The position numbers and the translations under genes are program-made. A DNA stretch of 46,599 nt. Source: Thermodesulfovibrionales bacterium (lineage in GTDB: Bacteria; Nitrospirota; Thermodesulfovibrionia; Thermodesulfovibrionales; SM23-35). Positions 10,726 through 45,699 of this stretch are shown in pieces (positions within the stretch are counted from its first letter, which is position 1; every line of letters begins with the position of its first letter). The notes under the pieces are model-generated. The model ran no database searches. It saw only the letters and a program-made list of their open reading frames with translations, and was not told the origin of the DNA. The stretch spans positions 1 to 46,599 of the forward strand of contig JBNAVX010000021.1 of the NCBI GenBank assembly GCA_049700155.1. The letters run 5' to 3'.

Positions 10726-10737
10726 GAAAGAAAGCAA

Positions 10738-10905
10738 ATGGCAGAGAACATTAGAACGTATAAAGATTTAAGAGTATTTCAACATGCAATGGAATCTGCT
10801 ATGAGGATTTTTGAAATTACAAAGACTTTCCCCGTTGAAGAACGGTATTCCCTTGTTAATCAGATAAAACGGTCATCAAAAAAGGAAGGTTACCATGGCT
10901 TTTGA
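10738..10905 (+). pseudogene. Truncated four-helix-bundle protein gene ('23S rRNA intervening-sequence protein' family), N-terminal ~47 aa retained
   Basis: MAENIRTYKDLRVFQHAMESAMRIFEITKTFPVEERYSLVNQIKRSS matches the family N-terminus (DLxVWQxA...FPxEERYxLxxQxRRAA). It then diverges and stops at 10903-10905, overlapping the next gene's start. Confidence 0.6.
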
Positions 10906-11608: not shown

Positions 11609-11635
11609 AAAACTGGAGTATATAAGGAGTTTCTG

Positions 11636-24696: not shown

Positions 24697-24739
24697 TTTA
24701 ATCCGAGTAATGCAGATGTTTATAATTCATGACATAAAT

Positions 24740-24861
24740 GCAGGACATAGTATTCTCGCTCATTCTCGGTCGTTCCGACCTCCGAGGCTTTTGCCTCTTT
24801 ATATTAGAAATATTCTCAAAGGAATATCAGCAAAAGAATCCGCTCAAATACTATGCCCTGC
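24740..24861 (+). repeat. Structured palindromic element, copy 1 (outer stem GCAGGACATAGTATT / AAATACTATGCCCTGC)
   Basis: Shares the blocks AGTATTCTCGCTCATTCTCGG, CCTCCGAGG and AATCCGCTC(A/G)AATACT with 39352-39460. The internal hairpins differ in sequence but pairing is kept. Confidence 0.6.
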
Positions 24862-24945
24862 TTTTTGTGCCACAGTCGCCTGCGACTACAATGGTTTTAT
24901 AATGAACTTTGCTTAATTCAGGTATTTTGCCTGAGGGGAGGGAAT

Positions 24946-25350
24946 ATGGCAGAGATTTTAATTGTAGATGATGAAGTGGATATGCTTGCCCTTCTTGCTA
25001 TGATCATCACAGAAAAGACCAATCACAGGGCAACAACCACAAATAATCCTTTTGAGGTACCTAAATTAATTAAAGAAGGTAATTTCGATTTATTGATTGC
25101 TGATCTAAAGATGCCTGGTATGGGTGGTATAGAACTCATTGATGAAGTTAGAAAGATAGATAAAATTATTCCTATACTTATTATTACCGCTTATGGTTCT
25201 ATTGAATCAGCAGAAGAGGCGATACATAAGGGTGCTTATGATTACATCACAAAACCCTTTCGCAAAGAGCAGATACTTATTGCTATTAATAGGGCACTTG
25301 AATGGAAAGAGATGAAGAGAGAGATTGATTATTTAAAAGGGAAAAAATAA
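24946..25350 (+). CDS. Single-domain response regulator (CheY-like REC)
   Basis: ATG 24946 behind gaggggaggg. VDDE, ADLKMPG, ITAYG and TKPF pocket residues are present, and there is no output domain. Confidence 0.85.
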   Translation: MAEILIVDDEVDMLALLAMIITEKTNHRATTTNNPFEVPKLIKEGNFDLLIADLKMPGMGGIELIDEVRKIDKIIPILIITAYGSIESAEEAIHKGAYDYITKPFRKEQILIAINRALEWKEMKREIDYLKGKK

Positions 25351-25600
25351 TAAAAAGCATTATCCAAAAAATTGTTTAAGAACCCTTCTATAACATTTTT
25401 AAAAAGCCTTTTTTCTTATCTATTGTGAATGCATAGCCTATTAATAATTTTATAATTTATTTTTATAATTTAAATTTTAACTTTTTATTGACTTTGTAAT
25501 AACATTAGATTATTCTACTATATCTCTTAACATGTTGCGAAACACATCTGAGATGTTGCAAATCAAAACAACATAAAGAAAAGGAGGAGAGAAGATTAAA

Positions 25601-26575
25601 ATGGAAAAGCGATTCTCTAAATTTTTGTTCATCTCCTTAGTCTTACTAGCTATAACATTAGTTGCTGTCACCCTATTTGCTACTACTGAACCATCAACTG
25701 TCCAGCAAACAGCAGAAAAGGGTTCAAAGATTCCTTGGTGGGCATGGTCAATTATACTCTTAGTTTTTACATTTATCCTTGGTATACTCGCTGTGCTTGG
25801 AGGGGTAGGAGGTGGTGTATTATTCGTTCCTCTTGTAGGGGGGTTCTTCCCTTTTCATATTGACTTCGTGAGAGGAGCCGGCTTAATTGTAGCCCTTTCA
25901 GGAGCACTTGCTGCAGGTCCTGGGCTTTTAAAAAGGAATCTTGCTAGCCTCCGTCTCGCCCTTCCTGTAGCCTTAATCGCTTCATCTTCAGCAATAATCG
26001 GTGCAATGATAGGACTTGCCCTTCCAGCACATATAGTTAATATACTTCTTGGTGCAACTATAATCGGTATTGTCATAATCATGGCTTCTGCAAAGAAGTC
26101 TGATTTTCCGAATGTCCCAAAGCCTGATAAACTATCTCAAACATTAGGCATAATGGGAATATACAGAGAGGTATCCCTTGGTAAAGATATTGAATGGAAT
26201 ATACATAGAACGGCTCCGGGATTAATCTTATTTATAGTTATCGGCATAATGGCAGGAATGTTCGGTCTTGGGGCTGGTTGGGCAAATGTCCCTGTCCTGA
26301 ACCTTCTCATGGGAGCGCCTCTTAAGATATCTGTTGCAACAAGTAAGTTCTTACTTTCCATAACTGACACATCTGCTGCATGGATTTATCTCAATTCAGG
26401 TGCCGTGCTTCCGATGATAGTTGTTCCATCAGTTGTGGGTATTATGCTTGGTTCTATCGTTGGTGTTAGGATCCTCGCGGTTGCAAAACCAAAGGCGATT
26501 AAATGGATAGTAATAGGACTTTTATTATTCGCAGGAGTCAGGGCTTTACTTAAAGGGCTCGGGATATGGAGATGA
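25601..26575 (+). CDS. TSUP (TauE/SafE, DUF81) family anion permease
   Basis: Polytopic. Motif GGVGGGVLFVPLV and a second-half repeat GLGAGWANVPVLNLL are typical of TauE/SafE. Confidence 0.75.
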   Translation: MEKRFSKFLFISLVLLAITLVAVTLFATTEPSTVQQTAEKGSKIPWWAWSIILLVFTFILGILAVLGGVGGGVLFVPLVGGFFPFHIDFVRGAGLIVALSGALAAGPGLLKRNLASLRLALPVALIASSSAIIGAMIGLALPAHIVNILLGATIIGIVIIMASAKKSDFPNVPKPDKLSQTLGIMGIYREVSLGKDIEWNIHRTAPGLILFIVIGIMAGMFGLGAGWANVPVLNLLMGAPLKISVATSKFLLSITDTSAAWIYLNSGAVLPMIVVPSVVGIMLGSIVGVRILAVAKPKAIKWIVIGLLLFAGVRALLKGLGIWR

Positions 26576-26585
26576 AAATAAATTT

Positions 26586-26613
26586 AAAACTCAAAAGTCA
26601 AAACTCAAAACTG
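26586..26613. repeat. Heptamer tandem repeat AAAACTC AAAAGTC AAAACTC AAAACTG
   Basis: Read directly; lies in the 85-nt spacer between the TSUP gene and the small membrane protein gene. Confidence 0.7.
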
Positions 26614-26660
26614 AGAATCTTATAAAAATTTTAAACTTTTTATGAAATCAGGAGGGTTTT

Positions 26661-27083
26661 ATGGCAGAAGAGGATAGAACAAAGGCATCAGGTGAACAGA
26701 TTATATATGCAAATATCTTAAATATAGGTATGTATTTAGGTCTTGCTATTATAATAGTAACCTTTATTATATACATCTTAGGGATATTACCATCATTTAT
26801 TCCACCTCAGGATATCCCCAAATACTGGACGATGAAATCTGGAGACTTTATACATAGCCTGCATGCCCCTACAGGATGGGATTGGTTAGCATTGGTTAAT
26901 AAGGGAGATTATCTGAATTTTATAGGGATAGCATTACTTGCAGGACTAACCATTCTGTGTTATATTTGTATATTGCCAATATTGTTAGGTAAAAAAGATT
27001 TTATCTATTTTGTTATTTCTCTCATTGAAGTAGCAGTGTTGGCATTGGCGGCAAGTGGGATATTAAAATCAGGAGGTCATTAA
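26661..27083 (+). CDS. Small integral membrane protein (about 4 TM), DUF1634-like (tentative)
   Basis: Hydrophobic segments. DUF1634 proteins are commonly adjacent to TSUP genes. RBS aggaggg. Confidence 0.5.
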   Translation: MAEEDRTKASGEQIIYANILNIGMYLGLAIIIVTFIIYILGILPSFIPPQDIPKYWTMKSGDFIHSLHAPTGWDWLALVNKGDYLNFIGIALLAGLTILCYICILPILLGKKDFIYFVISLIEVAVLALAASGILKSGGH

Positions 27084-27085
27084 TC

Positions 27086-27925
27086 ATGGCAAATAAGGTG
27101 TGTCCAATAATAGAAAGGCTTGAAAGGCTGCTTTTAGCCACAGATGGTTCAGAATACAGTGAAGGGGCTGTTAGGGAGGCTATTAATTTAGCAAAGACAT
27201 GTGGAAGTAAACTATATGCTATATCAGTTATAGAGGTCAATCCTGAGTTTGAAGCACTTGCACCTGGACTTGCTGAAAAGGAAGAAAAGCAGAGAAGTGA
27301 ACATCTCAAGACAGTTAAATCAAAGGCGTCTAAGGAAGGTGTTGATTGTGAGATTATTTTATATCGTGGCGGAGAACCTTATGAATCTATCGTTGACGAA
27401 GCAGCAAAGAACAAGGTAGGGATGATTGTCATGGGTAGATACGGTCGAACTGGTTTAGGAAGGGTTATGATGGGAAGCACGACTGCTAAAGTCATAGGCT
27501 ATACACTTTGCAGGGTCATGGTTGTTCCTAAAGAAGCAAAGCTAAACTTTGATAAGATACTTATTGCTACAGATGGTTCAATGCATAGCGAATTTGCAGC
27601 AAATGAGGCTATAAGCATCGCAAAACGCAGTGGTAGTACATTGATTGCTCTTTCTGTTGCAAAAAAAGATGAAAATCTTCCAGCTGCAAAGGAGTGTGTT
27701 GATGCAGTAAAAAAAGATGCTGAAAAAGAAGGCATAAAAGTAAAAACTATAATCAGAAAGGGGATACCTCACGAGGTTATAGTAAAAACAGGTGCTCAGG
27801 AAGATGTTGGTCTTATAGTTATTGGAAGCCACGGTAGGACAGGCATAACAAAACTACTCATGGGGAGCGTAACAGAGAGAGTAATAGGACATGCAGAGAG
27901 CCCTGTCCTGGTTTGGAAACTTTAA
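27086..27925 (+). CDS. Tandem universal stress protein (2 x UspA)
   Basis: MGRYGRTGLGRVMMGSTTAKV and IGSHGRTGITKLLMGSVTERV. Its N-terminus is nearly identical in pattern to that of 4253-5158. Confidence 0.85.
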   Translation: MANKVCPIIERLERLLLATDGSEYSEGAVREAINLAKTCGSKLYAISVIEVNPEFEALAPGLAEKEEKQRSEHLKTVKSKASKEGVDCEIILYRGGEPYESIVDEAAKNKVGMIVMGRYGRTGLGRVMMGSTTAKVIGYTLCRVMVVPKEAKLNFDKILIATDGSMHSEFAANEAISIAKRSGSTLIALSVAKKDENLPAAKECVDAVKKDAEKEGIKVKTIIRKGIPHEVIVKTGAQEDVGLIVIGSHGRTGITKLLMGSVTERVIGHAESPVLVWKL

Positions 27926-28130: not shown

Positions 28131-28427
28131 ATGGCCACTGAATTCAGAAGGAAACATAAAAGGCAATATCATGTCGGCTTCGTAAGATACCACCTAAATG
28201 TCTTAGATAATAAGAGGTTGAAGAAAGTTCAGGGAACCGGTGTTTCTGTAGATATAAGTGAAGGAGGGCTTGGCTTGATAACTCAATATCCACTCGAGGA
28301 AGGACATTTTTTACTCTTTGAAGATGGGAATTTGATAGATGATATTAAACTCAAGGCGTCTATCGTCAGATGGACACAGGAACTTGAAGACAAAACTTAT
28401 CGTGTGGGATTGGAGTTTGTAGAATAA
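28131..28427 (+). CDS. Stand-alone PilZ-domain protein (c-di-GMP receptor type)
   Basis: RRKHKR (RxxxR) and DISEGGLG (DxSxxG) motifs at the canonical spacing. Confidence 0.75.
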   Translation: MATEFRRKHKRQYHVGFVRYHLNVLDNKRLKKVQGTGVSVDISEGGLGLITQYPLEEGHFLLFEDGNLIDDIKLKASIVRWTQELEDKTYRVGLEFVE

Positions 28428-28438: not shown

Positions 28439-29800
28439 TCATTCTCCTTCTAATCCATATTTTTTCAACTTTCTCCACAGTGATACTCTATCAATTTTAA
28501 GTATCTGTGAAGCAAGTGTTTTATTGCCACCTACTTCCTTTAAGACCCAGTTAATGTAGGACTTTTCCTGTTCCTCAAGTGAAGGATATCTACCCTCCTT
28601 TTTTCTGAAGGTCCTTATGCTCAATTGTCTGAGGTCCTCAGGAAGATGAGCTACCTCAATCATGTCTCCAGTTGTGAGGGCAACACCTCTTTCGATGATA
28701 TTTTCCAGTTCTCTAACATTTCCCGGGAAATCGTAGTTTACCAGAATAGCCATTACTTCAGGGGAGATCTCCTTTACATCTTTTTTCATCAATAATGCAT
28801 ACTTTTTCAGGAAATAGTAACCTAAGAGAGGTATATCGTCTTTTCTTTCTGAAAGGGGTGGAATATGTAATGAAACCACATTTAATCTGAAATATAAATC
28901 CTGTCTTAATCGTCCAGCCTTCACCGCATCCTGTATGTCTCTATTTGTTGCTGCAATAAACCTGACATCCACCTTTATAGGTTCTGTCCCCCCTACCCTT
29001 AAGACCTCTTTTTCCTGAATAACCCTTAAAAGCTTTACCTGCATAGAAGGAGGCATTTCTGTTATCTCATCAAGAAAGAGAGTGCCTTTAGATGCAGTTT
29101 CTATTAATCCTTTTTTCATAGCTACTGCACCAGTAAATGCACCTTTTTCATGCCCGAAAAGCTCACTTGAAAGGAGTTCCTCTGTAAAGGCACCACAATT
29201 TATGGCAAAGAATGGACCCCCAGCACGCAGACTATTGAAATGTATAAATCTCGCAAACAGCTCCTTACCTGTTCCACTCTCTCCGCTTATGAGGACATTA
29301 CACTCTGTTGGCGCTATCTGCCTTGCTGTATCAAGGAGCTTCTGCATCTTTATATCCTGTGTAATTATCTTAACCTTGCCCTGAAATTTTTCTATCTGCT
29401 CCCTGAGTTCAATGTTCTCTCTCTTTAACCTTACCTTTTCAACTGCCTCCTTAACGACCTTTCTTACCTCTTCCAGTTTAAAAGGCTTCGCTACATAATA
29501 GAATGCACCGTGTTTCATGGTCTCAACAGCAGACTCAAGAGTGGCATAACCTGTTATCATTATCACCTCTGTGTCAGGATATAGCTCACGGCATTTTTTC
29601 AGTATCTGCATCCCGTCCACCTTCTCCATCCTCAAGTCTGTCAGTACAACATCAAATTGGTGTTCTTCTATGAGTCTGAGTGCAGTAGGTCCACTTTCTG
29701 TTCCAATAACATCATAACCCTCTTTTCTCATAACATGTTCGAGGTTTTTAAGTGCAATCTTTTCATCATCAACGATTAATATCTTTGCTGTAACCTCCAT
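28439..29800 (-). CDS. Sigma54-dependent response regulator (NtrC family: REC + AAA+ + Fis-type HTH)
   Basis: REC (VDDE, LTDLRM, KPF), Walker A GESGTGKE, GAFTGA loop, Walker B FLDEI, C-terminal HTH (NKTLASQILKIDRVSLWRKLKKYG). Start overlaps the HK stop by 1 nt. Confidence 0.92.
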   Translation of the reverse strand: MEVTAKILIVDDEKIALKNLEHVMRKEGYDVIGTESGPTALRLIEEHQFDVVLTDLRMEKVDGMQILKKCRELYPDTEVIMITGYATLESAVETMKHGAFYYVAKPFKLEEVRKVVKEAVEKVRLKRENIELREQIEKFQGKVKIITQDIKMQKLLDTARQIAPTECNVLISGESGTGKELFARFIHFNSLRAGGPFFAINCGAFTEELLSSELFGHEKGAFTGAVAMKKGLIETASKGTLFLDEITEMPPSMQVKLLRVIQEKEVLRVGGTEPIKVDVRFIAATNRDIQDAVKAGRLRQDLYFRLNVVSLHIPPLSERKDDIPLLGYYFLKKYALLMKKDVKEISPEVMAILVNYDFPGNVRELENIIERGVALTTGDMIEVAHLPEDLRQLSIRTFRKKEGRYPSLEEQEKSYINWVLKEVGGNKTLASQILKIDRVSLWRKLKKYGLEGE

Positions 29801-31344
29801 TATTTCTCCTTTTTTATTGGTAATCTTATCAGGAATGAAGTCCCTTTACCAACTTCGCTATAGACTCCTATACAGCCATTATTTTCTTCAATAATCTCCT
29901 CAACAACATAGAGACCGAGTCCAGAGCCCTTTCTGATATCAATTCTTGAGCTGGAATCTTTTTCAGAATCCTTTGTTGTGAAAAAAGGTTCAAATATCCT
30001 CGGTAAAATCTCAGGGGGAATCCCTACACCTGTATCTTTTATCTCAATGTCAATTGTATCTTTACCAATAGGACACTCACCTGTACATGTGTAACGATAT
30101 TCTGGATATTCACAGACCTTTTCATATGTCTCATTAACTGTTCCTTCTGCCTTCTTTGTAAAATGTTTCTTTGCCATAATGAATACCTTTCCTTCATCAG
30201 TAATTGCTTCAATAGCATTTTTTATGAGATTTAAGAAAGCCTGCTGAATCCTCTGTTTATCAGCAAAAATGTATATATCATCCGCTATATCAACGTTGAT
30301 TTCGATTCCTGATGGTATTTCACCTTTGATAAATAGGATCGTCTCTTCAATAAGTTTTTTAAGCGGTAGGCTCTCTTTTTTGAATTCCCTGTGTCTTGAG
30401 AATTCTAATAAAGAACGGACAATATCACGCGCCCTATCTGTCTGTGTGGAAATCTGTGTAAGCAGTTCTTTTTTATAATCTGTATCAGCCTCTTCAAGCT
30501 CTTCTGCGAGTATCTGGCAGGATGATGATATATTTGCTAACGGGTTATTCAATTCATGTGCAACGCCAGAAAGTAATGTCCCAAGTGAGGCGAGCTTCTC
30601 TCTCTGTATAAGGTGTTTCTGTCTTAATTCAAGTTCACTCAACATCTTATTGAATGCATCTGTTAAAGAAACGATCTCTCTGTCTTTTGAATTGATTGAC
30701 ACAGTTCTGAGCTTCCTTTCTTCTATTAGTTTCATCTGTTCTTCCAATGCTTGAAGAGGTTTTTCTACCATCCTCGACAGAATTTGACCGATTACAATCC
30801 CTAAAAGTGATAAAGAGATAATCAGGAGAACAAGTATCCTCTGTGTTCTCGTGAGTAATTCCTGTAATCTCTTCCTTTCAGTCTTTGACAAATCTTCAGA
30901 AACTGTCACTATCTCCTTGCCTTTTTCTCTTATTAACTTCTCCAGAGCTATTCGCTTATCAATGTTATTCTTATTAGTTATAGCGAATTCAGTCATCAAT
31001 GACTTATATTCATCTAAACCCCTTTTTATGAAATAAAGCTGTGGGGCTATAGAAAGCCTCTTAAATCTATCAATATGTTGATTAAGTATTTCCTGAAGCT
31101 TGTTGACATAATCCATATTTTCCCTGTAGTCCTCATCTTTGTTATATAAAAAGAAGTTCTTCTCGAACCGCCTTATCTCAAGAACGCCGTCAAATAGTTC
31201 CGAGATAACATCTCCAAATTGGACCTTCCTCTCCATATACCAGAGTTCTGTAAGTGTGAAGATAGTGATTAATATTAGGACCAATATCCCGCCGTAATAA
31301 CCAAGAATAATCTTCTGCCTCAAGCTTGAGGGAAATTTAAACAT
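29800..31344 (-). CDS. Membrane sensor histidine kinase (HK3) with helical extracytoplasmic sensor and a Cys-containing insertion in the ATPase domain
   Basis: Two TM segments flank a helical region of about 130 aa. H-box VAHELNNPLA, N-box LIKNAIEA, G1 DTGVGI, G2 GSGLGL. About 25 extra residues lie between N and G1, including CEYPEYRYTCTGEC (30073-30114). Confidence 0.85.
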   Translation of the reverse strand: MFKFPSSLRQKIILGYYGGILVLILITIFTLTELWYMERKVQFGDVISELFDGVLEIRRFEKNFFLYNKDEDYRENMDYVNKLQEILNQHIDRFKRLSIAPQLYFIKRGLDEYKSLMTEFAITNKNNIDKRIALEKLIREKGKEIVTVSEDLSKTERKRLQELLTRTQRILVLLIISLSLLGIVIGQILSRMVEKPLQALEEQMKLIEERKLRTVSINSKDREIVSLTDAFNKMLSELELRQKHLIQREKLASLGTLLSGVAHELNNPLANISSSCQILAEELEEADTDYKKELLTQISTQTDRARDIVRSLLEFSRHREFKKESLPLKKLIEETILFIKGEIPSGIEINVDIADDIYIFADKQRIQQAFLNLIKNAIEAITDEGKVFIMAKKHFTKKAEGTVNETYEKVCEYPEYRYTCTGECPIGKDTIDIEIKDTGVGIPPEILPRIFEPFFTTKDSEKDSSSRIDIRKGSGLGLYVVEEIIEENNGCIGVYSEVGKGTSFLIRLPIKKEK

Positions 31345-31579
31345 ATATTAATTTTAAAAGTTATCATTGCAAAAAGCAATGTTTGACGATTCTTTTGCAA
31401 CATTAAACGATAAATAGTTTGTAATCTTTTATTGATGCGTCTCTATCAATAATCTATAAGTAAGATAAACTTTGTATTCAATTCTATGTTGAATTATGCA
31501 TCAATTAGTCTTTTTTATTAGATGACCCTCTTTTTAAAAATATCATGAAAAAACAATATCTTACGAATATAAAGGTGCA

Positions 31580-31595
31580 TGGCATGGAATATGTT
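31580..31595 (+). promoter_or_regulatory. Sigma54-like -24/-12 element TGGCAT-N5-ATGT (weak -12)
   Basis: TGGCATGGAATATGTT lies 33-48 nt upstream of ATG 31628. GG is present but the -12 reads GT rather than GC. Confidence 0.3.
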
Positions 31596-31627
31596 TAAGT
31601 TAAATACAAAAAGGAGGTGTGTAAGGA

Positions 31628-31807
31628 ATGAAAAAGCTGATTAAAAAATTAGAAAGGCTATTTTCAGCAGCAGCCTTTGCAGAGGCTGGCGAATACGATA
31701 CTGCAAGGGAGATTCTAAGAGAAGAAGAAAGACCTCAGAAGAGAGAAAGGGTCACTCCATCTACAAGGCCAAGAAAGGAGCTAAGGGCACCAGGCATAAA
31801 AAGGTAA
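31628..31807 (+). CDS. Unannotated 59-aa protein with an 'FAEAGE-x2-TAREI' N-terminal module and a basic Pro/Arg-rich tail
   Basis: Strong RBS aaaaggaggtg with 8-nt spacing. MKKLIKKLERLFSAAAFAEAGEYDTAREILREEERPQKRERVTPSTRPRKELRAPGIKR. The N-terminal ~30 aa are paralogous to the N-terminus of 34126-34602. Confidence 0.6.
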   Translation: MKKLIKKLERLFSAAAFAEAGEYDTAREILREEERPQKRERVTPSTRPRKELRAPGIKR

Positions 31808-31833
31808 AACTAAGGTAAAACTAAAGTAAAAGG
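31801..31833. repeat. Tandem 11-mer AAGGTAAAACT AAGGTAAAACT AAAGTAAAAGG
   Basis: Read directly. It spans the small-ORF stop codon and most of the spacer before the Lon start. Confidence 0.7.
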
Positions 31834-31845
31834 CGCTAAATAAAA

Positions 31846-33954
31846 ATGAATATCTTTAAGAGATCAGAAGATAAGCTACAGGCTGCAACGATTGAGGAGA
31901 TAAGGCAGGTAATTGCCTCATCTAAGATACCACCTTATGTCCAGCAGGTCGCAAAAAAGGAGCTTGATATGCTATCGAAGACAAGCCCTACTGTAGCGGA
32001 ATATGCGATAGGGCTTGCATACATTGAATATCTTGTCAGTTTACCATGGGATAAGAAGACTGAGGACTGCCTCGATCTTGAGAGGGCTGAAAGAATCCTG
32101 AACGAAAGGCACTATGGATTGCAGATGGTTAAGGAGAGAATCTTAGAGCACCTATCAGTAAAGATCTTAATAGCAAATAAAAAACCAAGAATTCTGGTTG
32201 TAGATGATGAAGAAGTTGCAAGAAAAAACTTAGAACATATATTGAAGAAAGAAAACTATACAGTTGTCACAGCAGCGAATGGAGCAGAAGCTATTAAGAA
32301 GATGGAGGCATCTAATTTTGATGTGATTCTTACTGATATCAGAATGGAGAAGGTTAACGGGATTGAGGTTCTTGAAAGGGCTAAAAACATATGCCCCGAG
32401 ACCAAGGTTATCATGATTACTGGTTATGCATCAGTGGACTCTGCTGTTGAGACTATGAAGAAAGGTGCATTTCATTATATTGAAAAGCCCTTTAAGGTTG
32501 ATACAGTGCGCTCAGTTGTAAAAAATGCAATTGAGAAGAAGCTGTCAACTATCTCTACAAAAGGCTCTGTATTATGCTTTGCAGGTCCACCGGGAACAGG
32601 GAAGACCTCACTGGGTAAGTCTATTTCTGATGCACTTGGGAGAAAGTTTGCGAGGATCTCTCTTGCAGGTATGAAAGATGAGGCTGAGATCAGAGGACAT
32701 AGAAGGACATATGCAGGTGCAATGCCCGGGCGTATTATTGAAGAGATTAGACGTGTAGAATCTTCTAATCCTGTCTTCATGCTCGATGAGATTGATAAGA
32801 TAGGACAGGACTTTAAAGGTGATTCTGCCTCTGCACTGCTTGAAGTACTCGACCCTGAACAGAATCAAAATTTTCTCGACCACTATCTTGATGTACCTTT
32901 TGACTTATCTGGCGTGATGTTTATTGTAACGGCAAATATTGCTGACAATATTCATGATGCACTCAGAGACCGAATGGAAGTAATCGAACTATCAGGCTAT
33001 ACAGAGGATGAAAAGATAAAGATAGGCTTACAGTATCTTGTTCCGAAGCAGATCCGTGAACAGGGACTATCAGATTATCCACCTGAATTTACTCCTGAGG
33101 CTATATTAAAGATCGTTCATGAATATACACGAGAAGCAGGCATCCGCAATCTTGAGAGGCAGATCGCCAACATCTGTAGAAAGATTGCCACAGAATATGT
33201 CCATCATAAAAAGAATATTCAAAATATTAAAGTGACACCCCGCGAGGTAGAGAAATATCTTGGAACGAGAAAATACTACAGAGAGGTTGCTGATGAGGAG
33301 AATAGGATTGGTGTAACTACTGGTCTTGTATGGACAGAAACAGGTGGAGAGATTATCTTTGTAGAGGCTGCGAAGATGAAGGGAAATAAACAATTAATAC
33401 TGACTGGTTCCCTGGGGAATGTAATGTGTGAATCAGCACATGCAGCATTGAGTTATATAAGGAGCAATGCATCAGTCTTCAACATCCCTGACAACTTCTT
33501 TGAGAACCATGACATCCATATCCATGTACCTGCTGGAGCCATACCAAAAGACGGACCATCTTCAGGGACTACGATCGCACTCGCTCTTATTTCACTTCTA
33601 ACCGGGGTACCTGCGAGGAGAGATGTAGCTATATCAGGTGAGATGACATTGAGCGGAAGGATACTTCCTGTTGGAGGTATCAAAGAGAAGTTGCTGGCTG
33701 CAAGACGGGCAGGAGTAAAAACAGTAGTCTTCCCTCTTAAGAATAAGGTAGATATTGAAAGTCTTCCTGAAGATGTAAAAAGAGGACTTGATATAAGACT
33801 TGTTGATAGAATCGAGGAGATCGTTCCTATTGTTCTAATGAATAAATCAAAGTCTGATATACAGGATAGGCAGAGGTCAAACCTTTTTCATTCAGAGGGA
33901 ATTGCAATCTGCAACATGAATACCCTTTCATGTAGCAGTATTAAAAAAGCTTGA
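31846..33954 (+). CDS. LonA-type protease lacking the N-terminal LON domain, with a receiver (REC) domain inserted into the AAA+ module
   Basis: LPW motif region, HYGLQMVKERILEHLSV, then REC (nt about 32188-32541; Asp codon 32335-32337). This is followed by GPPGTGKTS, DEAEIRGHRRTYAGAMPGRI, FMLDEIDK, and the protease domain PKDGPSSG...GGIKEKLLAA. Confidence 0.85.
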   Translation: MNIFKRSEDKLQAATIEEIRQVIASSKIPPYVQQVAKKELDMLSKTSPTVAEYAIGLAYIEYLVSLPWDKKTEDCLDLERAERILNERHYGLQMVKERILEHLSVKILIANKKPRILVVDDEEVARKNLEHILKKENYTVVTAANGAEAIKKMEASNFDVILTDIRMEKVNGIEVLERAKNICPETKVIMITGYASVDSAVETMKKGAFHYIEKPFKVDTVRSVVKNAIEKKLSTISTKGSVLCFAGPPGTGKTSLGKSISDALGRKFARISLAGMKDEAEIRGHRRTYAGAMPGRIIEEIRRVESSNPVFMLDEIDKIGQDFKGDSASALLEVLDPEQNQNFLDHYLDVPFDLSGVMFIVTANIADNIHDALRDRMEVIELSGYTEDEKIKIGLQYLVPKQIREQGLSDYPPEFTPEAILKIVHEYTREAGIRNLERQIANICRKIATEYVHHKKNIQNIKVTPREVEKYLGTRKYYREVADEENRIGVTTGLVWTETGGEIIFVEAAKMKGNKQLILTGSLGNVMCESAHAALSYIRSNASVFNIPDNFFENHDIHIHVPAGAIPKDGPSSGTTIALALISLLTGVPARRDVAISGEMTLSGRILPVGGIKEKLLAARRAGVKTVVFPLKNKVDIESLPEDVKRGLDIRLVDRIEEIVPIVLMNKSKSDIQDRQRSNLFHSEGIAICNMNTLSCSSIKKA

Positions 33955-34059
33955 TAGACTTTAAAAAAACAGATTCTTTATTTAAGAATGTTGCAAAATT
34001 AAACGAGAGAAAAACCCTTAGTAAACGAGAAAACCTGAAAAATTAAATAGTTATTAAGT

Positions 34060-34075
34060 TGGTATAAGAATTGTT
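34060..34075 (+). promoter_or_regulatory. Sigma54-like -24/-12 element TGGTAT-N5-TTGT (imperfect)
   Basis: TGGTATAAGAATTGTT lies 51-66 nt upstream of ATG 34126 and has the same deviation pattern as 31580-31595. Confidence 0.3.
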
Positions 34076-34125: not shown

Positions 34126-34602
34126 ATGAAAAAGGAGAATCTAAAAGACTTGATAAAAAAGATAGAAGACATAATGACTGCCTCTACCTTTGCAGAGGCA
34201 GGTGAGTTTGAGACTGCAAGGGAAATAATAAAAGGCGAAAGAAGGGTACTCCTTGCTATGAGAGAAGGAGAGGTAGAAAGAAAAGCCTTAACATATGCAT
34301 TGAATACATGTAAGAGAATCGGGGCTGATATGGATATCTTATATATCTCAACGATTGATGCAAGCGAAAATCCGATTCTAAAAGAATTTTTTTCAGAGCT
34401 TCAGAGAGAGGGGATAAATTATCGGCTGTTTATGAAGACTGGTCGTTTGAGAGAAGAGATTAAGCACTACACAGACTCTGAGAGTAATATCAAATTTGTC
34501 GTTGTTGAGTCACCTGCTGCTGAACGCTGGAATAGAGAGGAGGGGCTCTCTAAGATACTCGAAAAGATTAAGTGTCCGCTGGTAGTGGTAGATATCCCCT
34601 AA
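34126..34602 (+). CDS. FAEAGE-module protein fused to a USP-like (adenine-nucleotide alpha-hydrolase-fold) domain lacking the ATP-binding motif
   Basis: The N-terminus KDLIKKIEDIMTASTFAEAGEFETAREII parallels the 31628 ORF. The remainder follows a USP-like beta-alpha pattern (VLLAM...DILYIS...FVVVES...CPLVVV) without G-x2-G-x9-G(S/T). Confidence 0.6.
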   Translation: MKKENLKDLIKKIEDIMTASTFAEAGEFETAREIIKGERRVLLAMREGEVERKALTYALNTCKRIGADMDILYISTIDASENPILKEFFSELQREGINYRLFMKTGRLREEIKHYTDSESNIKFVVVESPAAERWNREEGLSKILEKIKCPLVVVDIP

Positions 34603-34663
34603 AATTTAAGGTCTGTTCAAATAAATTAAGTTAAAAAACTAACTATCAAAAAGGAGGTAACAA

Positions 34664-34915
34664 ATGGCAAAAGAAGGTGTCAAGAAGAAGAAACCTGTTG
34701 GAAAGATGCTCTTATTTGGGATTGTTACAGTAACCCTCTATGTGCTCCTGTTATCAAATCAGGATTTTATTAACAAAAATTTTGTGCGAGGTGGATTTTA
34801 TGCCCTGCTACCTATAGCAACGGCATTTATCTTCTCGTTCTTCCACGGGACATTTACAGGGAGTTTCTGGACTGTCCTCGGTGTTGAGGCAAAAAAGAAG
34901 AGGGAGGTGAAATAA
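34664..34915 (+). CDS. Small membrane protein (2 TM, Lys-rich termini)
   Basis: Strong RBS aaaaggagg. Its stop abuts the start of the TSUP gene, suggesting translational coupling. Confidence 0.6.
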   Translation: MAKEGVKKKKPVGKMLLFGIVTVTLYVLLLSNQDFINKNFVRGGFYALLPIATAFIFSFFHGTFTGSFWTVLGVEAKKKREVK

Positions 34916-34916
34916 T

Positions 34917-36011
34917 ATGCATGATGTAGTAAGTCAGGTAAGCAATTTTATCGACCTTACATGGATGAACATATTGTATCTATTCTTTGTGGGTTTTGTC
35001 GGTGGTCTTGTGAGCGGATTTATCGGTTCAGGAGGTGCTTTTGTGCTCACTCCTGGAATGATGAGTATGGGTGTTCCTGGTCTTGTTGCAGTAGCAAGCA
35101 ACATGTGCCATAAGTTTCCAAAGGCACTCGTTGGTGCTATAAAACGTGCTAAATATGGTCAGGTTGATGTCAAGCTTGGATTGATTATGGGTGCCTCAGC
35201 CGAGGCAGGAGTCCTGTATGGAGCCCATATTCAGGAAAGTATCAAGAGGGCATGGGGAGATGCGGGTTCTAACCTTTATGTAAGTGTGGCATTCGTTGTG
35301 GTCCTGGCAATAGTTGGAGGTTATGTATTACGTGATGCCTTCAAAAGCAAAAAAACCGGAGATAGCTCTGAAGAAGAAAAGGTTACCAAGATTGCCCGCT
35401 GGGTGCAGTCTATACATATACCAGGAACAATGGTCTATTTTAAGAGTCTCAAGGCAAAGGTATCAGTTCTTCTTACCATACCGCTTGGTTTTGCAACAGG
35501 CATGCTTGCTGCCACTATAGCAGTTGGTGGTTTTATAGGTGTGCCAGCCATGATTTACGTACTTGGTGCACCAAGCCTTATGGCATCTGCAACAGAGCTT
35601 GTAATAGCATTTGTTATGGGTATGGGAGGTTCATTTAAATATGCACTGCATGGTTTTGTTGATATCCGGCTTTCAATGATTATACTTGCAGGCTCGCTCT
35701 TCGGGATCCAATTAGGCGCTATCGGTACAACATATGTAAAACCATTTATGATAAAGCTTGTCATGGGGCTTATCATGGTCATCGTCCTTTTCAGTCGTGG
35801 GTTGATGGTTCCTGTATATCTCTCACAACTTGGAGTAATCCAGACCCTGAGTGAAACTACAACTAAATTGTTAAAGACCACAAGCTTTGCTATAATGATG
35901 ATCGCCTTACTTACAGGAGCTATTGTGGTTTTAACTGCATTATGGAAAGGTATCAGGGAAGAAAAGTTGCAGCATGCTACAAAAGAGGTCTTAGAGCATG
36001 GGAAGATATAG
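34917..36011 (+). CDS. TSUP (TauE/SafE)-like permease, long form
   Basis: Polytopic. GFIGSGGAFVLTPGM and the second-half VGGFIGVPAMIYVLG resemble TauE repeats, with a hydrophilic central loop. Confidence 0.65.
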   Translation: MHDVVSQVSNFIDLTWMNILYLFFVGFVGGLVSGFIGSGGAFVLTPGMMSMGVPGLVAVASNMCHKFPKALVGAIKRAKYGQVDVKLGLIMGASAEAGVLYGAHIQESIKRAWGDAGSNLYVSVAFVVVLAIVGGYVLRDAFKSKKTGDSSEEEKVTKIARWVQSIHIPGTMVYFKSLKAKVSVLLTIPLGFATGMLAATIAVGGFIGVPAMIYVLGAPSLMASATELVIAFVMGMGGSFKYALHGFVDIRLSMIILAGSLFGIQLGAIGTTYVKPFMIKLVMGLIMVIVLFSRGLMVPVYLSQLGVIQTLSETTTKLLKTTSFAIMMIALLTGAIVVLTALWKGIREEKLQHATKEVLEHGKI

Positions 36012-36852
36012 AAAGATACTCGTTGCAATAGACGGCTCTGGATCAAGCAAGAATGCACTCAGACAGGCGATAAAGCTGGCAAACAGTGAGGAATGCTGGA
36101 TTACTGTCGTATCTGTAATCCCATCTTACACAGGAGACCTTTCAGCAACATTTATAGGTGATATTAGAAAGGCTATGGCTGAGCCATGTGAAAGGGCACT
36201 CTCTGAAGCAGAAGAGATTGCTAAGGCTGAAAGGGCATTAATAAAGACTGTATGTGAAGAAGGGGAGATATACGAGAGGATTGTTGACCTTGCAGAAGCA
36301 GAGAATTGCGATCTTATAGTAATGGGAAGGAAAGGTCTCTCAAAGATAGAAAGGGCATTCATGGGAAGTGTAACAGCAAGGGTTATCGGACACAGCCAGA
36401 GAGATGTCCTTGTAGTTCCTGAGAATACTGCCATAGGTTGGAAGTGTATCTTCCTTAATACTGATGGTTCTAAATATAGTGAGGCTGCAACAGAGAGTGC
36501 GATAAACTTTGCAAAATCTTATGGTGGGGAGCTGATGGTCCTTTCAGTAGTCGAGGTAACAGAAGAATTTATTACACGTGCCCCTGGAATGCTTGAAGAA
36601 ATGGTTAAGAAGGCAAAGGGTTTTGTAGATGATGTGAAGAAGAAGGCAGAAAATTCTAATATTAAGACCACGACATTCGTGAGAGAAGGTGAGGCTTATA
36701 AGGTAATAACAGACCTTGCAAAAGAGCAGAAGGCTGATATTATCTTTATGGGAAGCCATGGAAGAACAGGACTTAAAAGACTTCTCATGGGTAGCGTAAC
36801 AGCAAAGGTTATAGGATATGCACCCTGCCCCGTACTTGTAGTCAGACCTTAA
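35998..36852 (+). CDS. Tandem universal stress protein (2 x UspA)
   Basis: ILVAIDGSGSS, MGRKGLSKIERAFMGSVTARV, MGSHGRTGLKRLLMGSVTAKV. Overlaps the end of the TSUP gene by 14 nt. Confidence 0.85.
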   Translation: MGRYRKILVAIDGSGSSKNALRQAIKLANSEECWITVVSVIPSYTGDLSATFIGDIRKAMAEPCERALSEAEEIAKAERALIKTVCEEGEIYERIVDLAEAENCDLIVMGRKGLSKIERAFMGSVTARVIGHSQRDVLVVPENTAIGWKCIFLNTDGSKYSEAATESAINFAKSYGGELMVLSVVEVTEEFITRAPGMLEEMVKKAKGFVDDVKKKAENSNIKTTTFVREGEAYKVITDLAKEQKADIIFMGSHGRTGLKRLLMGSVTAKVIGYAPCPVLVVRP

Positions 36853-36868: not shown

Positions 36869-36901
36869 AGCCCCTGAATATATTCAGGGGCTCTTTATTT
36901 T
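36869..36901 (+). terminator. Rho-independent terminator
   Basis: Perfect palindrome AGCCCCTGAATA/TATTCAGGGGCT followed by a T-rich tract (CTTTATTTT). Confidence 0.85.
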
Positions 36902-45507: not shown

Positions 45508-45699
45508 TATTATTTTAAAGTCATATTATATATTTAATTTATTCCAGAGAATTTTCTTAAGCAAATAAGATGCCAACAATACTTTTAATATCAATTAAAC
45601 TTAACCCTTTAAAAATGGCTTTTTATAGATATTTATTAAAATATTTTAGGGTAGAAGTGTTGTTTATTGAGCATAGACTGAGTAATATTTAACACAGAG

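What the first reader, a model, noticed from the sequence alone, without database searches (positions are those of the whole stretch)
28439..33954. One kinase with two closely related receivers: a transcriptional arm (sigma54 EBP) and a proteolytic arm (REC-Lon) in divergent operons
HK3 (29800-31344) is translationally coupled to an NtrC-type regulator (28439-29800). The small-ORF/REC-Lon operon is transcribed divergently from it. The Lon REC and the NtrC-type REC align without gaps over about 117 aa. I counted roughly 55% identical positions by hand, including long shared runs (KNLEH, FDV.LTD.RMEKV.G, VIMITGYA..SAVETMK.GAF.Y..KPFK). The lone REC at 24946-25350 is much less similar to either. 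This pattern is what a duplicated receiver retaining the same kinase partner would look like. It suggests a branched two-component pathway that couples sigma54 transcription with regulated proteolysis.
Basis: inference. Interest (0 to 1): 0.7.

Follow-up and report, generated by a model that had tools for sequence, protein, structure and literature searches.

The report
Kinase with regulator and receiver-Lon protease
One membrane sensor kinase sits beside two closely related phosphate-receiver proteins, a sigma-54 gene activator and a Lon protease with a built-in receiver; this three-part signalling system was already proposed in Desulfovibrio vulgaris, so the locus is a further example, not a discovery.

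Summary
The receiver (REC) domains of the sigma54 activator (28439-29800, -) and of the REC-Lon protease (31846-33954, +) share 65/117 residues (56%) with no gaps. The lone REC shares only 32-34% with either.

The interpretation, one kinase feeding two receivers, is well supported by computation:
- 18 of 20 REC-Lon loci from Nitrospirota and Desulfobacterota carry the same kinase and activator nearby. None of 38 ordinary-Lon control loci does.
- Both receiver sets share a private alpha1 signature (DDE-x-[IV]-A-[RL]-x-N), which is absent from other receivers in these loci.
- Their extra similarity lies on the kinase-docking face.
- The kinase's phosphotransfer helix is conserved across both phyla.

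It is not new. Rajeev et al. 2011 described DVU3303-3305 of Desulfovibrio vulgaris as a "three-component system" and noted Thermodesulfovibrio orthologues. Trotter et al. 2023 reported cofitness above 0.9 for the three genes. The published activator motif (GTTGC-N5-GCAAC) and sigma54-type promoters occur in the window, before the small ORF/REC-Lon and before a TauE-Usp operon.

Phosphotransfer to either receiver and the effect of phosphorylation on Lon remain untested. I add three details: the REC is a clean insertion into an N-terminally truncated LonA; a conserved small protein motif (FAEAGE) marks two regulon members; and the gene order varies between genomes.

The parts
28439..29800 (-). 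NtrC-family sigma54 enhancer-binding response regulator (EBP), 453 aa: REC, AAA+ sigma54-interaction domain with GAFTGA, and Fis-type HTH
   Evidence: Pfam hits. GAFTGA at aa 220. 49-91% identical to the EBPs next to REC-Lon in 18 other loci.
29435..29785 (-). EBP receiver domain core (aa 6-122)
   Evidence: BLASTP 56% identity, no gaps, to the Lon REC. Alpha1 signature DDEKIALKNLEHV.
29800..31344 (-). Membrane histidine kinase HK3, 514 aa: two TM segments flanking a helical sensor region, then HisKA and HATPase_c. Its stop codon overlaps the EBP start (TAATG).
   Evidence: DHp helix 'SGVAHELNNPLANISSSCQIL' is conserved in 18 loci across two phyla and differs from HK1 and HK2.
31366..31380 (.). 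Palindrome ATTGCAAAAAGCAAT. Predicted EBP binding site (UAS), 22 nt upstream of the HK3 start and about 200 nt upstream of the sigma54-type promoter.
   Evidence: Matches the DVU3305-orthologue motif GTTGC-N5-GCAAC (PMC3333781 Table S9). A site at the same position relative to the kinase start occurs in L081, L085 and L086.
31488..31502 (.). Second, weaker UAS-like site GTTGAATTATGCATC
   Evidence: Two mismatches to the motif, but an identical sequence lies at the same place in L083.
31580..31595 (+). Sigma54-type promoter TGGCATGGAATATGTT (-24 GG, -12 TGT), 32 nt upstream of the small ORF
   Evidence: Conserved upstream of the small ORF in all six Nitrospirota loci. One of only 3 matches to TGGYAYN5WTGYT in the window, where 0.44 are expected (pattern derived post hoc).
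31628..31807 (+). Small ORF, 59 aa, with the motif KKLE..F.A..FAEAGEY.TAREIL and a basic tail. Conserved, with no known family.
   Evidence: Homologues found in 6 Nitrospirota and 4 Desulfobacterota loci by jackhmmer. It always lies divergent from the kinase or at the head of the TauE-Usp operon.
31846..33954 (+). REC-Lon, 702 aa: an N-terminally truncated LonA with a receiver domain inserted before the AAA+ module
   Evidence: Pfam. TIGR00763 scores 714.8, above its cut-off of 608. Walker A at aa 247, Walker B at 313, catalytic Ser motif DGPSSG at 569 and Lys motif GGIKEK at 610. The top 120 homologues all have this architecture.
31846..32181 (+). REC-Lon aa 1-112: the helical bundle equivalent to canonical LonA residues about 244-347. 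The globular N-terminal substrate-binding domain and long helix are absent.
   Evidence: Alignment to PDB Lon chains. No LON_substr_bdg hit.
32188..32538 (+). Inserted receiver domain of REC-Lon (aa 115-231). D120, D121, D164 (phospho-acceptor), T192 and K214 are invariant.
   Evidence: (beta-alpha)5 fold at pLDDT 82-89, with 3- and 8-residue linkers on either side.
32548..33852 (+). Lon AAA+ module, lid and S16 protease domain (aa 235-669)
   Evidence: Aligns to residues 347-775 of solved LonA structures, E 1e-160.
33901..33915 (.). UAS ATTGCAATCTGCAAC, inside the non-conserved 3' tail of the REC-Lon ORF and 211 nt upstream of the next operon
   Evidence: Equivalent sites GTTGCAATTTGCAAC in L083 and GTTGCGATATGTAAC in L001.
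33990..34004 (.). Weaker UAS-like site GTTGCAAAATTAAAC
   Evidence: Two mismatches. The same sequence is present in L083.
34060..34075 (+). Sigma54-type promoter TGGTATAAGAATTGTT, 50 nt upstream of the 158-aa gene
   Evidence: L083 has TGGCACAAAAATTGT and L081 has TGGTATGAAATTTGGT at the equivalent place.
34126..34602 (+). 158-aa protein: the N-terminal FAEAGEF.TAREI motif (shared with the small ORF) plus a weak Usp-like domain
34664..34915 (+). 83-aa two-TM membrane protein, conserved in the module
34917..36011 (+). TauE/SafE-family anion transporter, the counterpart of DVU3299
   Evidence: Pfam. 57-95% identical copies lie next to REC-Lon in 18 loci. DVU3299 is a DVU3305 target (PMC3333781, PMC10102598).
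35998..36852 (+). Tandem universal stress protein (Usp x2), the counterpart of DVU3298
36869..36892 (+). Intrinsic terminator closing the operon
   Evidence: 10-bp stem with 6 GC pairs, followed by a T-run.

Best explanation
The locus is a Nitrospirota orthologue of the Desulfovibrio vulgaris DVU3303-3305 'three-component system'. It contains one membrane histidine kinase (HK3) and two receivers that share HK3's docking signature.

**Step 1 (inferred).** HK3 senses an unknown envelope or anion-related stress and autophosphorylates.

**Step 2 (inferred from co-conservation, a shared alpha1/loop signature and a conserved DHp helix; not measured).** HK3 transfers the phosphoryl group to Asp55 of the EBP and to Asp164 of REC-Lon.

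**Step 3 (binding shown for the D. vulgaris orthologue by DAP-chip; here supported by motifs and promoters).** The phosphorylated EBP binds GTTGC-N5-GCAAC sites. It then activates sigma54 promoters upstream of two units: the small FAEAGE-motif ORF, which in this window is followed by REC-Lon, and the 158aa-83aa-TauE-Usp operon.

**Step 4 (inferred).** Phosphorylation of the REC, which is inserted by 3- and 8-residue linkers directly in front of the Lon AAA+ module, switches Lon activity. The REC takes the place of the missing N-terminal substrate-binding domain. By analogy with NtrC1/DctD-type receivers, it probably controls ring assembly or substrate access. The same signal would then change both transcription and proteolysis.

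The substrates are unknown. The two FAEAGE-motif proteins of the regulon are candidates.
For: - **Architecture and REC similarity:**
- **Functional receiver and protease residues are all present:**
- **Co-occurrence:** 18/20 REC-Lon loci carry the kinase and EBP across two phyla, against 0/38 control loci.
- **Shared signature:** alpha1 and the beta4-alpha4 loop carry a signature private to the two receiver sets. Their excess identity is confined to the kinase-facing elements.
- **Kinase:** HK3 DHp helix 1 is conserved and differs from the other two kinases in the window. No other kinase is consistently linked to REC-Lon.
- **Global comparison:** the partner EBP REC scores as high to the Lon REC as any non-Lon single-REC protein among the top hits from 1.84e9 representatives.
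- **Regulatory sites:** the published motif and conserved sigma54-type promoters are present.
- **Literature:** DVU3305 binds the DVU3302/3303 intergenic region, and the three genes were proposed to form a three-component system with orthologues in Thermodesulfovibrio (PMC3333781). Cofitness is above 0.9 for DVU3303-3305 (PMC10102598). The regulon is listed in PMC4641369.
Against: - No phosphotransfer, ATPase or protease assay exists for any member. None was found in the searchable literature.
- In D. vulgaris, REC-Lon is the first gene of the DVU3303-3305 operon. Transposon polarity could therefore inflate the cofitness.
- REC phylogeny is weakly resolved. The Lon+EBP clade has 37% bootstrap support once one rogue sequence is removed. 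Lon RECs and EBP RECs are not reciprocally monophyletic.
- Two loci are exceptions. L007 has no kinase or EBP within 10 kb, and L003 has only an EBP fragment.
- The AF2 model has pTM 0.41, so it says nothing reliable about how the REC contacts the AAA+ ring.
- The -12 elements of both promoters read GT instead of the canonical GC.
Confidence: 0.68

Rival explanations
1. REC-Lon is only a transcriptional target of the HK3-EBP system, as a sigma54 regulon member. Its receiver is phosphorylated by another kinase elsewhere in the genome or by acetyl phosphate. The REC similarity would then reflect common ancestry only.
For: - In the window, REC-Lon lies downstream of a sigma54-type promoter with EBP sites, so co-localisation could be explained by regulation alone.
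- L007 keeps REC-Lon without a nearby kinase or EBP.
- Extra HK-EBP paralogue pairs lie close by in L081 and L086.
Against: - In L081 and L085, REC-Lon is not downstream of the small-ORF promoter, yet the kinase and EBP remain adjacent.
- The alpha1 and loop signature is maintained in both receivers across two phyla, while the distal elements (beta2, alpha2, alpha3) have diverged to background. This points to selection on a common docking surface.
- RECs of the extra EBP paralogues lack the signature.
Confidence: 0.12
2. The Lon REC is not a parallel output. Either it is a phosphate sink, or it is a bait that heterodimerises with the similar EBP REC so that Lon degrades the EBP or the kinase. 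Both would give negative feedback on the pathway.
For: - Lon's normal substrate-binding N domain is missing, and a REC similar to the EBP's sits in its place.
- Alpha4, beta5 and alpha5, the usual REC dimer face, are 49-70% identical between the two receivers.
Against: - In D. vulgaris, mutants of all three genes have the same fitness pattern, with cofitness above 0.9 (PMC10102598). A feedback protease should give a different or opposite phenotype, although polarity is a caveat.
- A pure sink would not need an intact Walker A/B and Ser-Lys dyad, yet these are conserved in all homologues.
Confidence: 0.12
3. The similarity of the two receivers is ordinary REC-family conservation and carries no functional meaning.
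For: All REC domains share the DD, D, T and K residues and align without gaps.
Against: - 56% identity compares with 32-36% for other RECs in the same loci.
- The two sets share a private alpha1 signature.
- Co-occurrence is 18/20 against 0/38 in controls.
Confidence: 0.02

Closest known systems
DVU3303-DVU3304-DVU3305 'three-component system' of Desulfovibrio vulgaris Hildenborough (Rajeev et al. 2011, PMC3333781; Kazakov et al. 2015, PMC4641369; Trotter et al. 2023, PMC10102598)
   Same: - The same three proteins: REC-Lon, a membrane histidine kinase and a sigma54 EBP response regulator.
- The same neighbouring regulon: hypothetical proteins, a TauE-type anion transporter and UspA.
- The same EBP motif, GTTGC-N5-GCAAC.
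- Thermodesulfovibrio orthologues were already noted by the authors.
   Different: - **Gene order.** D. vulgaris has one operon, Lon-HK-EBP, divergent from the transporter operon. Here HK-EBP is divergent from small ORF-Lon, and the transporter operon lies downstream.
- **Small gene.** The small FAEAGE-motif gene sits next to the kinase promoter here, not at the head of the transporter operon.
- **Kinase insert.** HK3 here carries a Cys-containing insert in the ATP-binding domain.
- **Sequence.** I could not compare directly with the DVU proteins. The Desulfovibrionaceae MAG orthologues (L013, L015) are 49-53% identical for the EBP and 47-50% for REC-Lon.
ArcB -> ArcA + RssB in E. coli (Mika & Hengge 2005; reviewed in PMC3861889)
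   Same: One kinase phosphorylates both a transcription-factor response regulator and a response regulator that controls proteolysis. The system was also called a 'three-component system'.
   Different: - RssB is a separate adaptor that delivers RpoS to ClpXP. Here the receiver is fused into the protease itself.
- The protease is Lon and the transcription arm is sigma54-dependent.
- ArcA and RssB receivers are not close paralogues (own knowledge).
CckA-ChpT -> CtrA + CpdR in Caulobacter (for example PMC11519897)
   Same: A branched phosphorelay that couples a DNA-binding response regulator with a receiver that controls an AAA+ protease.
   Different: - CpdR is a single-domain receiver acting in trans on ClpXP, and it is active when unphosphorylated (own knowledge).
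- That pathway uses a phosphorelay with an Hpt protein, not direct transfer.
NtrC1/DctD-type receivers controlling AAA+ ring assembly (Aquifex NtrC1 and NtrC4 structures 1NY5, 1ZY2, 3DZD)
   Same: - A receiver sits directly N-terminal to an AAA+ module.
- These are the closest solved receivers to the Lon REC (75-83 bits).
- They offer a plausible model for how phosphorylation could gate assembly or activity.
   Different: - In the EBP a coiled-coil linker of about 20 residues joins REC and AAA+. In REC-Lon the linker is about 8 residues, and the REC is an insertion after a helical bundle.
- The AAA+ module belongs to a different clade (Lon, not sigma54 activator).
Canonical LonA (endopeptidase La, TIGR00763; for example PDB 3M6A, 6U5Z, 7P6U)
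   Same: - The helical bundle, AAA+ module, lid and S16 protease domain with the Ser-Lys dyad.
- It scores above the TIGR00763 cut-off.
   Different: - It lacks the first ~243 residues, which form the globular N domain and long helix.
- It has a 122-residue REC inserted between residues equivalent to about 347 and 348.

Membership tests
DVU3303-3305-type three-component system (HK + sigma54 EBP-RR + REC-Lon RR) | A response regulator made of a REC domain plus the Lon AAA+ and S16 protease domains | tested here: met
   Pfam finds Response_reg, AAA, Lon_lid and Lon_C in one 702-aa ORF.
DVU3303-3305-type three-component system (HK + sigma54 EBP-RR + REC-Lon RR) | An adjacent histidine kinase and NtrC-family EBP response regulator, conserved together with REC-Lon | tested here: met
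   Present in the window. 18/20 REC-Lon loci carry both, against 0/38 canonical-Lon loci.
DVU3303-3305-type three-component system (HK + sigma54 EBP-RR + REC-Lon RR) | The EBP binding motif GTTGC-N5-GCAAC in the adjoining intergenic regions | tested here: met
   Sites at 31366-31380 and 33901-33915, plus two weaker sites. Motif taken from PMC3333781 Table S9. This is sequence evidence only. Binding was not tested.
DVU3303-3305-type three-component system (HK + sigma54 EBP-RR + REC-Lon RR) | A neighbouring sigma54-dependent operon encoding hypothetical proteins, a membrane anion transporter and a UspA protein | tested here: met
   158aa-83aa-TauE-Usp at 34126-36852, with a sigma54-type promoter at 34060-34075.
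DVU3303-3305-type three-component system (HK + sigma54 EBP-RR + REC-Lon RR) | Direct orthology to the DVU3303, DVU3304 and DVU3305 sequences | tested here: inconclusive
Desulfovibrionaceae MAG loci L013 and L015 with the same synteny are 49-53% (EBP) and 47-50% (REC-Lon) identical. The paper reports the T. yellowstonii EBP at 50% to DVU3305.
DVU3303-3305-type three-component system (HK + sigma54 EBP-RR + REC-Lon RR) | The kinase phosphorylates both receivers | not testable with these tools
   Only indirect support: the shared alpha1 and loop signature and the conserved DHp helix.
LonA protease (endopeptidase La) | An AAA+ module with Walker A and B, and an S16 domain with the Ser-Lys dyad | tested here: met
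   GPPGTGKT at aa 247, LDEIDK at 313, DGPSSG at 569, GGIKEK at 610. TIGR00763 scores 714.8 against a cut-off of 608.
LonA protease (endopeptidase La) | The N-terminal LON substrate-binding domain | tested here: not met
   No such Pfam hit. Only residues equivalent to about 244-347 of LonA are present. It is therefore a truncated, REC-containing LonA derivative.
NtrC-family sigma54 enhancer-binding response regulator | A REC with the phospho-acceptor Asp, an AAA+ domain with the GAFTGA loop, and a C-terminal HTH_8 | tested here: met
   Best NCBIfam matches are AtoC, ZraR and NtrC, all below their equivalog cut-offs, so it is a family member without a named orthologue.
Functional (phosphorylatable) receiver domain | An acidic pair, the phospho-acceptor Asp, a conserved Thr/Ser and a conserved Lys | tested here: met
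   Lon REC residues D120, D121, D164, T192 and K214 are invariant in 33 homologues. The EBP REC has the same residues.
Branched one-kinase/two-receiver pathways coupling transcription and proteolysis (ArcB-ArcA-RssB; CckA-ChpT-CtrA-CpdR) | The proteolysis arm is a free-standing receiver or adaptor acting on ClpXP | tested here: not met
   Here the receiver is fused inside a Lon protease. The locus works like these systems in logic, but it is not a member of either.

The most novel reading that the evidence does not exclude
The inserted receiver is a direct phospho-switch for a Lon machine. It acts like an NtrC1-type receiver that gates AAA+ ring assembly or pore access, and it replaces Lon's substrate-recognition domain. 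The conserved FAEAGE-motif proteins would be the dedicated substrates or anti-activators of phosphorylated REC-Lon. These are the 59-aa ORF and the N-terminus of the 158-aa protein, both behind sigma54 promoters of the same regulon. Together they would form a transcription-proteolysis feed-forward or feedback loop driven by one kinase. The lineage-specific co-clustering of Lon and EBP receivers would then reflect co-evolution of two receivers with one kinase.
Probability: 0.2. Interest if true: 0.6.

Novelty: new member of a known kind. Interest (0 to 1): 0.33.

Why it matters
If phosphotransfer to both receivers is confirmed, this family would be a compact natural example of one sensor kinase switching both sigma54 transcription and an AAA+ protease, with the receiver built into the protease. 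No REC-Lon has been studied biochemically or structurally. No solved structure contains this architecture, and no such study turned up in the searched literature.

The family is widespread in sulfate- and thiosulfate-reducing Nitrospirota and Desulfobacterota. In D. vulgaris it is linked to oxyanion (chlorate) stress through the TauE-type transporter. However, the three-component idea itself has been in the literature since 2011, so this window adds an example and some detail, not a new concept.

Tried and rejected
- **Global library search.** I searched 1.84e9 representative proteins with the Lon REC to find its nearest receiver family. The top 150 were ranked by summed scores and dominated by multi-REC proteins. 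The result only gives a bound: no single-REC protein other than REC-Lon fragments exceeds about 145 bits.
- **Duplication timing.** NJ trees and a four-point test asked whether the duplication pre-dates the Nitrospirota/Desulfobacterota split. This is unresolved: 70% of bootstraps favour lineage-specific grouping and 30% favour orthology. The first Biopython bootstrap timed out.
- **Canonical sigma54 consensus.** A search with TGGCAC-N5-TTGCW and up to 2 mismatches gave only chance-level hits and missed the real candidates. These were found by cross-locus conservation instead.
- **AlphaFold2 model.** The REC-Lon model, built from a shallow 33-sequence alignment, has pLDDT 68.7 and pTM 0.41. 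The domains fold, but their arrangement is unreliable, so I ran no fold search and drew no mechanistic conclusion.
- **Genome scan.** It returned only 16 REC-Lon loci. The other 64 served as canonical-Lon controls.
- **Recent gene conversion.** Rejected as an explanation for the similarity, because third-position identity is 39%.
- **Family searches.** Pfam and NCBIfam gave nothing significant for the small ORF, the 158-aa protein or the 83-aa protein.

Full report
**1. What is in the sequence**

The region holds two divergent units.

On the minus strand lies a 514-aa membrane histidine kinase, HK3 (29800-31344; HisKA + HATPase_c). Its TAA stop overlaps by one base the ATG of a 453-aa NtrC-family enhancer-binding response regulator, the EBP (28439-29800). 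The EBP has REC, Sigma54_activat with GAFTGA, AAA_lid and HTH_8 domains. An AAGGAG lies 8 nt upstream of its start.

On the plus strand a 59-aa ORF (31628-31807) is followed after 38 nt by a 702-aa protein (31846-33954). That protein carries Response_reg (aa 116-225), AAA, Lon_lid and Lon_C domains.

BLASTP of the two response regulators gives 65/117 identities (56%), 83% positives, no gaps and E 5e-43. Over the same columns the lone REC at 24946-25350 shares 34% with the Lon REC and 32% with the EBP REC.

**2. Anatomy of REC-Lon**

Residues 14-112 align to residues about 244-347 of solved LonA structures. Residues 235-669 align to about 347-775. The receiver is therefore a clean 122-residue insertion just before the first strand of the AAA+ module. 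The globular N-terminal substrate-binding domain and long helix of LonA, about 243 residues, are missing.

Walker A, Walker B and the Ser and Lys motifs of the protease are intact. The receiver's D120, D121, D164, T192 and K214 are invariant in 33 homologues.

An AlphaFold2 model gives a confident (beta-alpha)5 receiver, joined by linkers of 3 and 8 residues. Its pTM is only 0.41, so the domain arrangement cannot be trusted. No solved structure has this architecture. NCBIfam simply calls the protein endopeptidase La.

**3. Is the pairing more than chance?**

All 120 best homologues of REC-Lon (72-95% identity, mostly Nitrospirota/Thermodesulfovibrionales) have the same architecture.

A scan of species-representative genomes returned one further Nitrospirota locus and 15 Desulfobacterota loci with the REC insertion at the same position. 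The Desulfobacterota families include Syntrophobacteraceae, Desulfococcaceae, Desulfomonilaceae, Desulfobulbales and Desulfovibrionaceae. Four more Nitrospirota loci came from exact-protein look-ups.

Of 20 loci with usable flanks, 18 have an HK3-like kinase immediately next to an EBP 49-91% identical to the window's, within 10 kb of REC-Lon. Eighteen also have a TauE transporter 57-95% identical to the one at 34917-36011, usually with a tandem Usp. Two loci are exceptions:
- L003 has only an EBP fragment.
- L007 has neither a kinase nor an EBP within 10 kb.

Among 38 canonical-Lon loci of at least 12 kb from the same scan, none has an HK3-like kinase or such a TauE. One has an EBP of at least 45% identity.

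Gene order differs between lineages:
- Lon-HK-EBP as one operon in L015.
- HK-EBP convergent with Lon in most Desulfobacterota.
- HK-EBP divergent from Lon in the window.

'Divergent operons' is therefore a local arrangement. The conserved unit is the gene set.

**4. Do the two receivers look like partners of one kinase?**

Across 117 core columns, mean identities are:

| Comparison | Mean identity |
|---|---|
| Lon REC vs EBP REC, same locus | 51.7% (range 41-59) |
| Lon REC vs partner-type EBP REC, other loci | 48.9% |
| Lon REC or partner EBP REC vs non-partner EBP or lone RECs in the same loci | 34-36% |

After the DD pair, both sets read E-x-[IV]-A-[RL]-x-N-L-x-[HYFR]-[IV]. A(+4) and N(+7) are invariant in 21/21 Lon RECs and 18/18 partner EBP RECs. 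They occur in 1/9 and 0/9 other receivers. The Ala after T-G-[YF] in the beta4-alpha4 loop is present in 20/21, 17/18 and 0/9.

Broken down by structural element:

| Element | Lon REC vs EBP REC, same locus | Lon REC vs other RECs (background) |
|---|---|---|
| alpha1 | 59% | 20% |
| beta3-alpha3 loop | 54% | 28% |
| beta4-alpha4 loop | 65% | 30% |
| beta5-alpha5 loop | 42% | 20% |
| alpha5 | 49% | 25% |
| beta2, alpha2, alpha3 | at background | at background |

From Spo0F-Spo0B and HK853-RR468 structures (my own knowledge), alpha1 and those loops form the kinase-docking face.

HK3's DHp helix 1, SG[VI]AH[EQ]LNNPL[SN]NIS[ST]SCQIL, is conserved in all 18 kinases. It differs from HK1 and HK2 of the window, which read AHELNNPIAIILGF.

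In the search of 1.84 billion representatives, only four single-REC proteins scored above about 145 bits to the Lon REC, and all four are REC-Lon fragments. The best individual REC among the multi-REC proteins that fill the rest of the list has 49% identity and 123 bits. The window's EBP scores 145.3 bits.

**5. Phylogeny**

In NJ trees with up to 54 outgroup receivers, Lon RECs and partner EBP RECs form one clade once a degenerate, Asp-less receiver (L013 15719-17242) is removed. Bootstrap support is only 37%.

Within that clade the Nitrospirota Lon and EBP receivers group together instead of with their Desulfobacterota counterparts. A four-point test favours this lineage-specific grouping in 70% of bootstraps and orthology in 30%. 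This is unresolved. It could mean co-evolution of two receivers with one kinase, compositional convergence, or noise in a short domain.

Recent gene conversion is excluded, because third codon positions are only 39% identical.

**6. Regulatory sites**

The motif published for DVU3305 orthologues is GTTGC-N5-GCAAC, for example T. yellowstonii ATTGCAAAATGCAACG. It occurs at:
- 31366-31380 (ATTGCAAAAAGCAAT), 22 nt from the HK3 start. Sites lie 22-35 nt from the kinase start in L081, L085 and L086.
- 33901-33915 (ATTGCAATCTGCAAC), in the non-conserved 3' tail of the REC-Lon ORF.
- Weaker conserved sites at 31488 and 33990.

A sigma54-type promoter lies 32 nt upstream of the small ORF (31580-31595, TGGCATGGAATATGTT). 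It is conserved upstream of that ORF in all six Nitrospirota loci. A second promoter (34060-34075, TGGTATAAGAATTGTT) precedes the 158aa-83aa-TauE-Usp operon, which ends in a strong terminator at 36869-36892.

The derived pattern TGGYAYN5WTGYT occurs only three times in the window, where 0.44 matches are expected. The third match lies upstream of lpxC. The pattern was derived post hoc, so this statistic is indicative only.

No terminator separates the small ORF from REC-Lon. In this window REC-Lon is therefore probably also under EBP control (inference). In L081 and L085 the small ORF stays divergent from the kinase while Lon lies on the other strand. The small ORF thus belongs with the kinase promoter region, not with Lon.

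**7. What is already known**

Rajeev et al. [quoted passage not shown] The paper reports further that:
- DAP-chip places DVU3305 between DVU3302-3298 (hypotheticals, a membrane protein, UspA) and DVU3303-3305.
- They list orthologues in Thermodesulfovibrio yellowstonii, Dechloromonas and Thioalkalivibrio, mostly associated with the Lon-RR.

Kazakov et al. 2015 list the regulon (PMC4641369).

Trotter et al. 2023 (PMC10102598) report pairwise cofitness above 0.9 for DVU3303:DVU3305. Mutants gain fitness in chlorate, whereas the transporter DVU3299 is needed in chlorate. One caveat is mine: DVU3303 is the first gene of that operon, so polarity could contribute to the cofitness.

I found no biochemical or structural study of any REC-Lon.

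The logic of one kinase, a transcriptional response regulator and a proteolysis-controlling response regulator is also known from two other systems:
- ArcB-ArcA-RssB (PMC3861889).
- CckA-ChpT-CtrA/CpdR.

In both, the receiver acts in trans on ClpXP.

**8. Most likely mechanism**

- **HK3** is a two-TM kinase with a helical sensor region. That region carries a conserved LEIRR[FY]EKN[FY]xLY motif. I infer that HK3 phosphorylates both the EBP and REC-Lon.
- **The phosphorylated EBP** activates the two sigma54 promoters.
- **Phosphorylation of the receiver in REC-Lon** changes protease activity. The receiver is wedged between the helical bundle and the AAA+ module. It may work by controlling assembly or substrate access, as NtrC1/DctD receivers do for their AAA+ rings.

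The following steps are shown:
- the domain architecture;
- the conserved catalytic and phospho-acceptor residues;
- co-conservation of the genes;
- the shared docking-face signature;
- the presence of the motif and promoters;
- DNA binding and cofitness for the orthologous proteins in D. vulgaris, from the literature.

The following are inferred:
- phosphotransfer to either receiver;
- the direction of the effect on Lon;
- the substrates.

**9. Verdict**

The locus is a further member of a known, still uncharacterised, kind of system. Interest is modest.

Noticed in passing
window 31628-31807 and 34126-34602; also L008 9272-9580(-), L010 8781-9398(-), L013 8926-9429(-), L015 9391-9711(-): The 59-aa ORF and the N-terminus of the 158-aa protein share a conserved motif, KKLE..F.A..FAEAGE[FYW].TAREI. 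It gives a weak single-TPR-like hit. In the 158-aa protein it is followed by a weak Usp-like domain. Proteins with this motif head the TauE-Usp operon in Desulfobacterota as well. No Pfam or NCBIfam family matches. They are candidate substrates or regulators of REC-Lon.
   Followed up: partly
window 25601-27925, with 22444-25350; also 4253-5158: A second, paralogous TauE / 140-aa membrane protein / tandem-Usp cassette lies just downstream of HK2 (a dCache-PAS kinase) and the lone REC. It is followed by a PilZ gene (28131-28427). A third tandem-Usp gene lies at 4253-5158 and is 58% identical to Usp_L. Loci L081 and L086 also carry extra HK-EBP-TauE-Usp modules. TauE-Usp cassettes thus seem to be repeatedly wired to two-component systems in these genomes.
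   Followed up: partly
window 19253-20434 (HK1) and 22444-24696 (HK2): HK1 and HK2 have almost identical DHp helices (AHELNNPIAIILGF[ST]D...KEY.MLKAIERQGLN). They may therefore converge on one receiver, perhaps the lone REC at 24946-25350. That would be the many-to-one counterpart of the one-to-two arrangement studied here.
   Followed up: no
window 45560-45575 (-): A near-consensus sigma54-type promoter, TGGCATCTTATTTGCT, lies about 53 nt upstream of lpxC (44620-45507, -). It is the only other match in the window to the promoter pattern derived from the two module promoters.
   Followed up: no
window 29800-31344 (-), HK3 aa about 385-425: The ATP-binding domain of HK3 carries an insert of about 40 residues with three cysteines (VCEYPEYRYTCTGECP). 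The insert is shared by L083, L081 and L085, is partial in L086, and is absent from L001 and all Desulfobacterota orthologues. It may be a lineage-specific redox or metal-sensing element.
   Followed up: no
L013 15719-17242 (+): A further EBP paralogue lies next to the module in a Desulfovibrionaceae MAG. Its receiver lacks the phospho-acceptor Asp (LVGL in place of LTDL), so it is a pseudo-receiver. It behaves as a rogue long branch in the REC trees.
   Followed up: no
L007 (uncultured delta proteobacterium) 9884-11890, and flanks: This locus has a REC-Lon with the normal alpha1 signature but no HK3-like kinase or partner EBP within 10 kb. It is flanked instead by an HK2-like kinase and three lone-REC-like genes. 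L003 keeps only a C-terminal EBP fragment.
   Followed up: no
window 33853-33954: The last ~35 codons of the REC-Lon ORF are not conserved, since most homologues end at about 666 aa. They overlap the predicted EBP binding site for the downstream operon at 33901-33915. The ORF tail is probably incidental read-through into a regulatory region.
   Followed up: partly
window 25487-25575: Upstream of TauE_L there is a sigma70-like promoter (TTGACT-17-TATTCT), followed by two direct GTTGC half-sites (GTTGCGAAAC, GTTGCAAATC) within 70 nt of the start codon. This may be cross-talk with the GTTGC-binding EBP.
   Followed up: no
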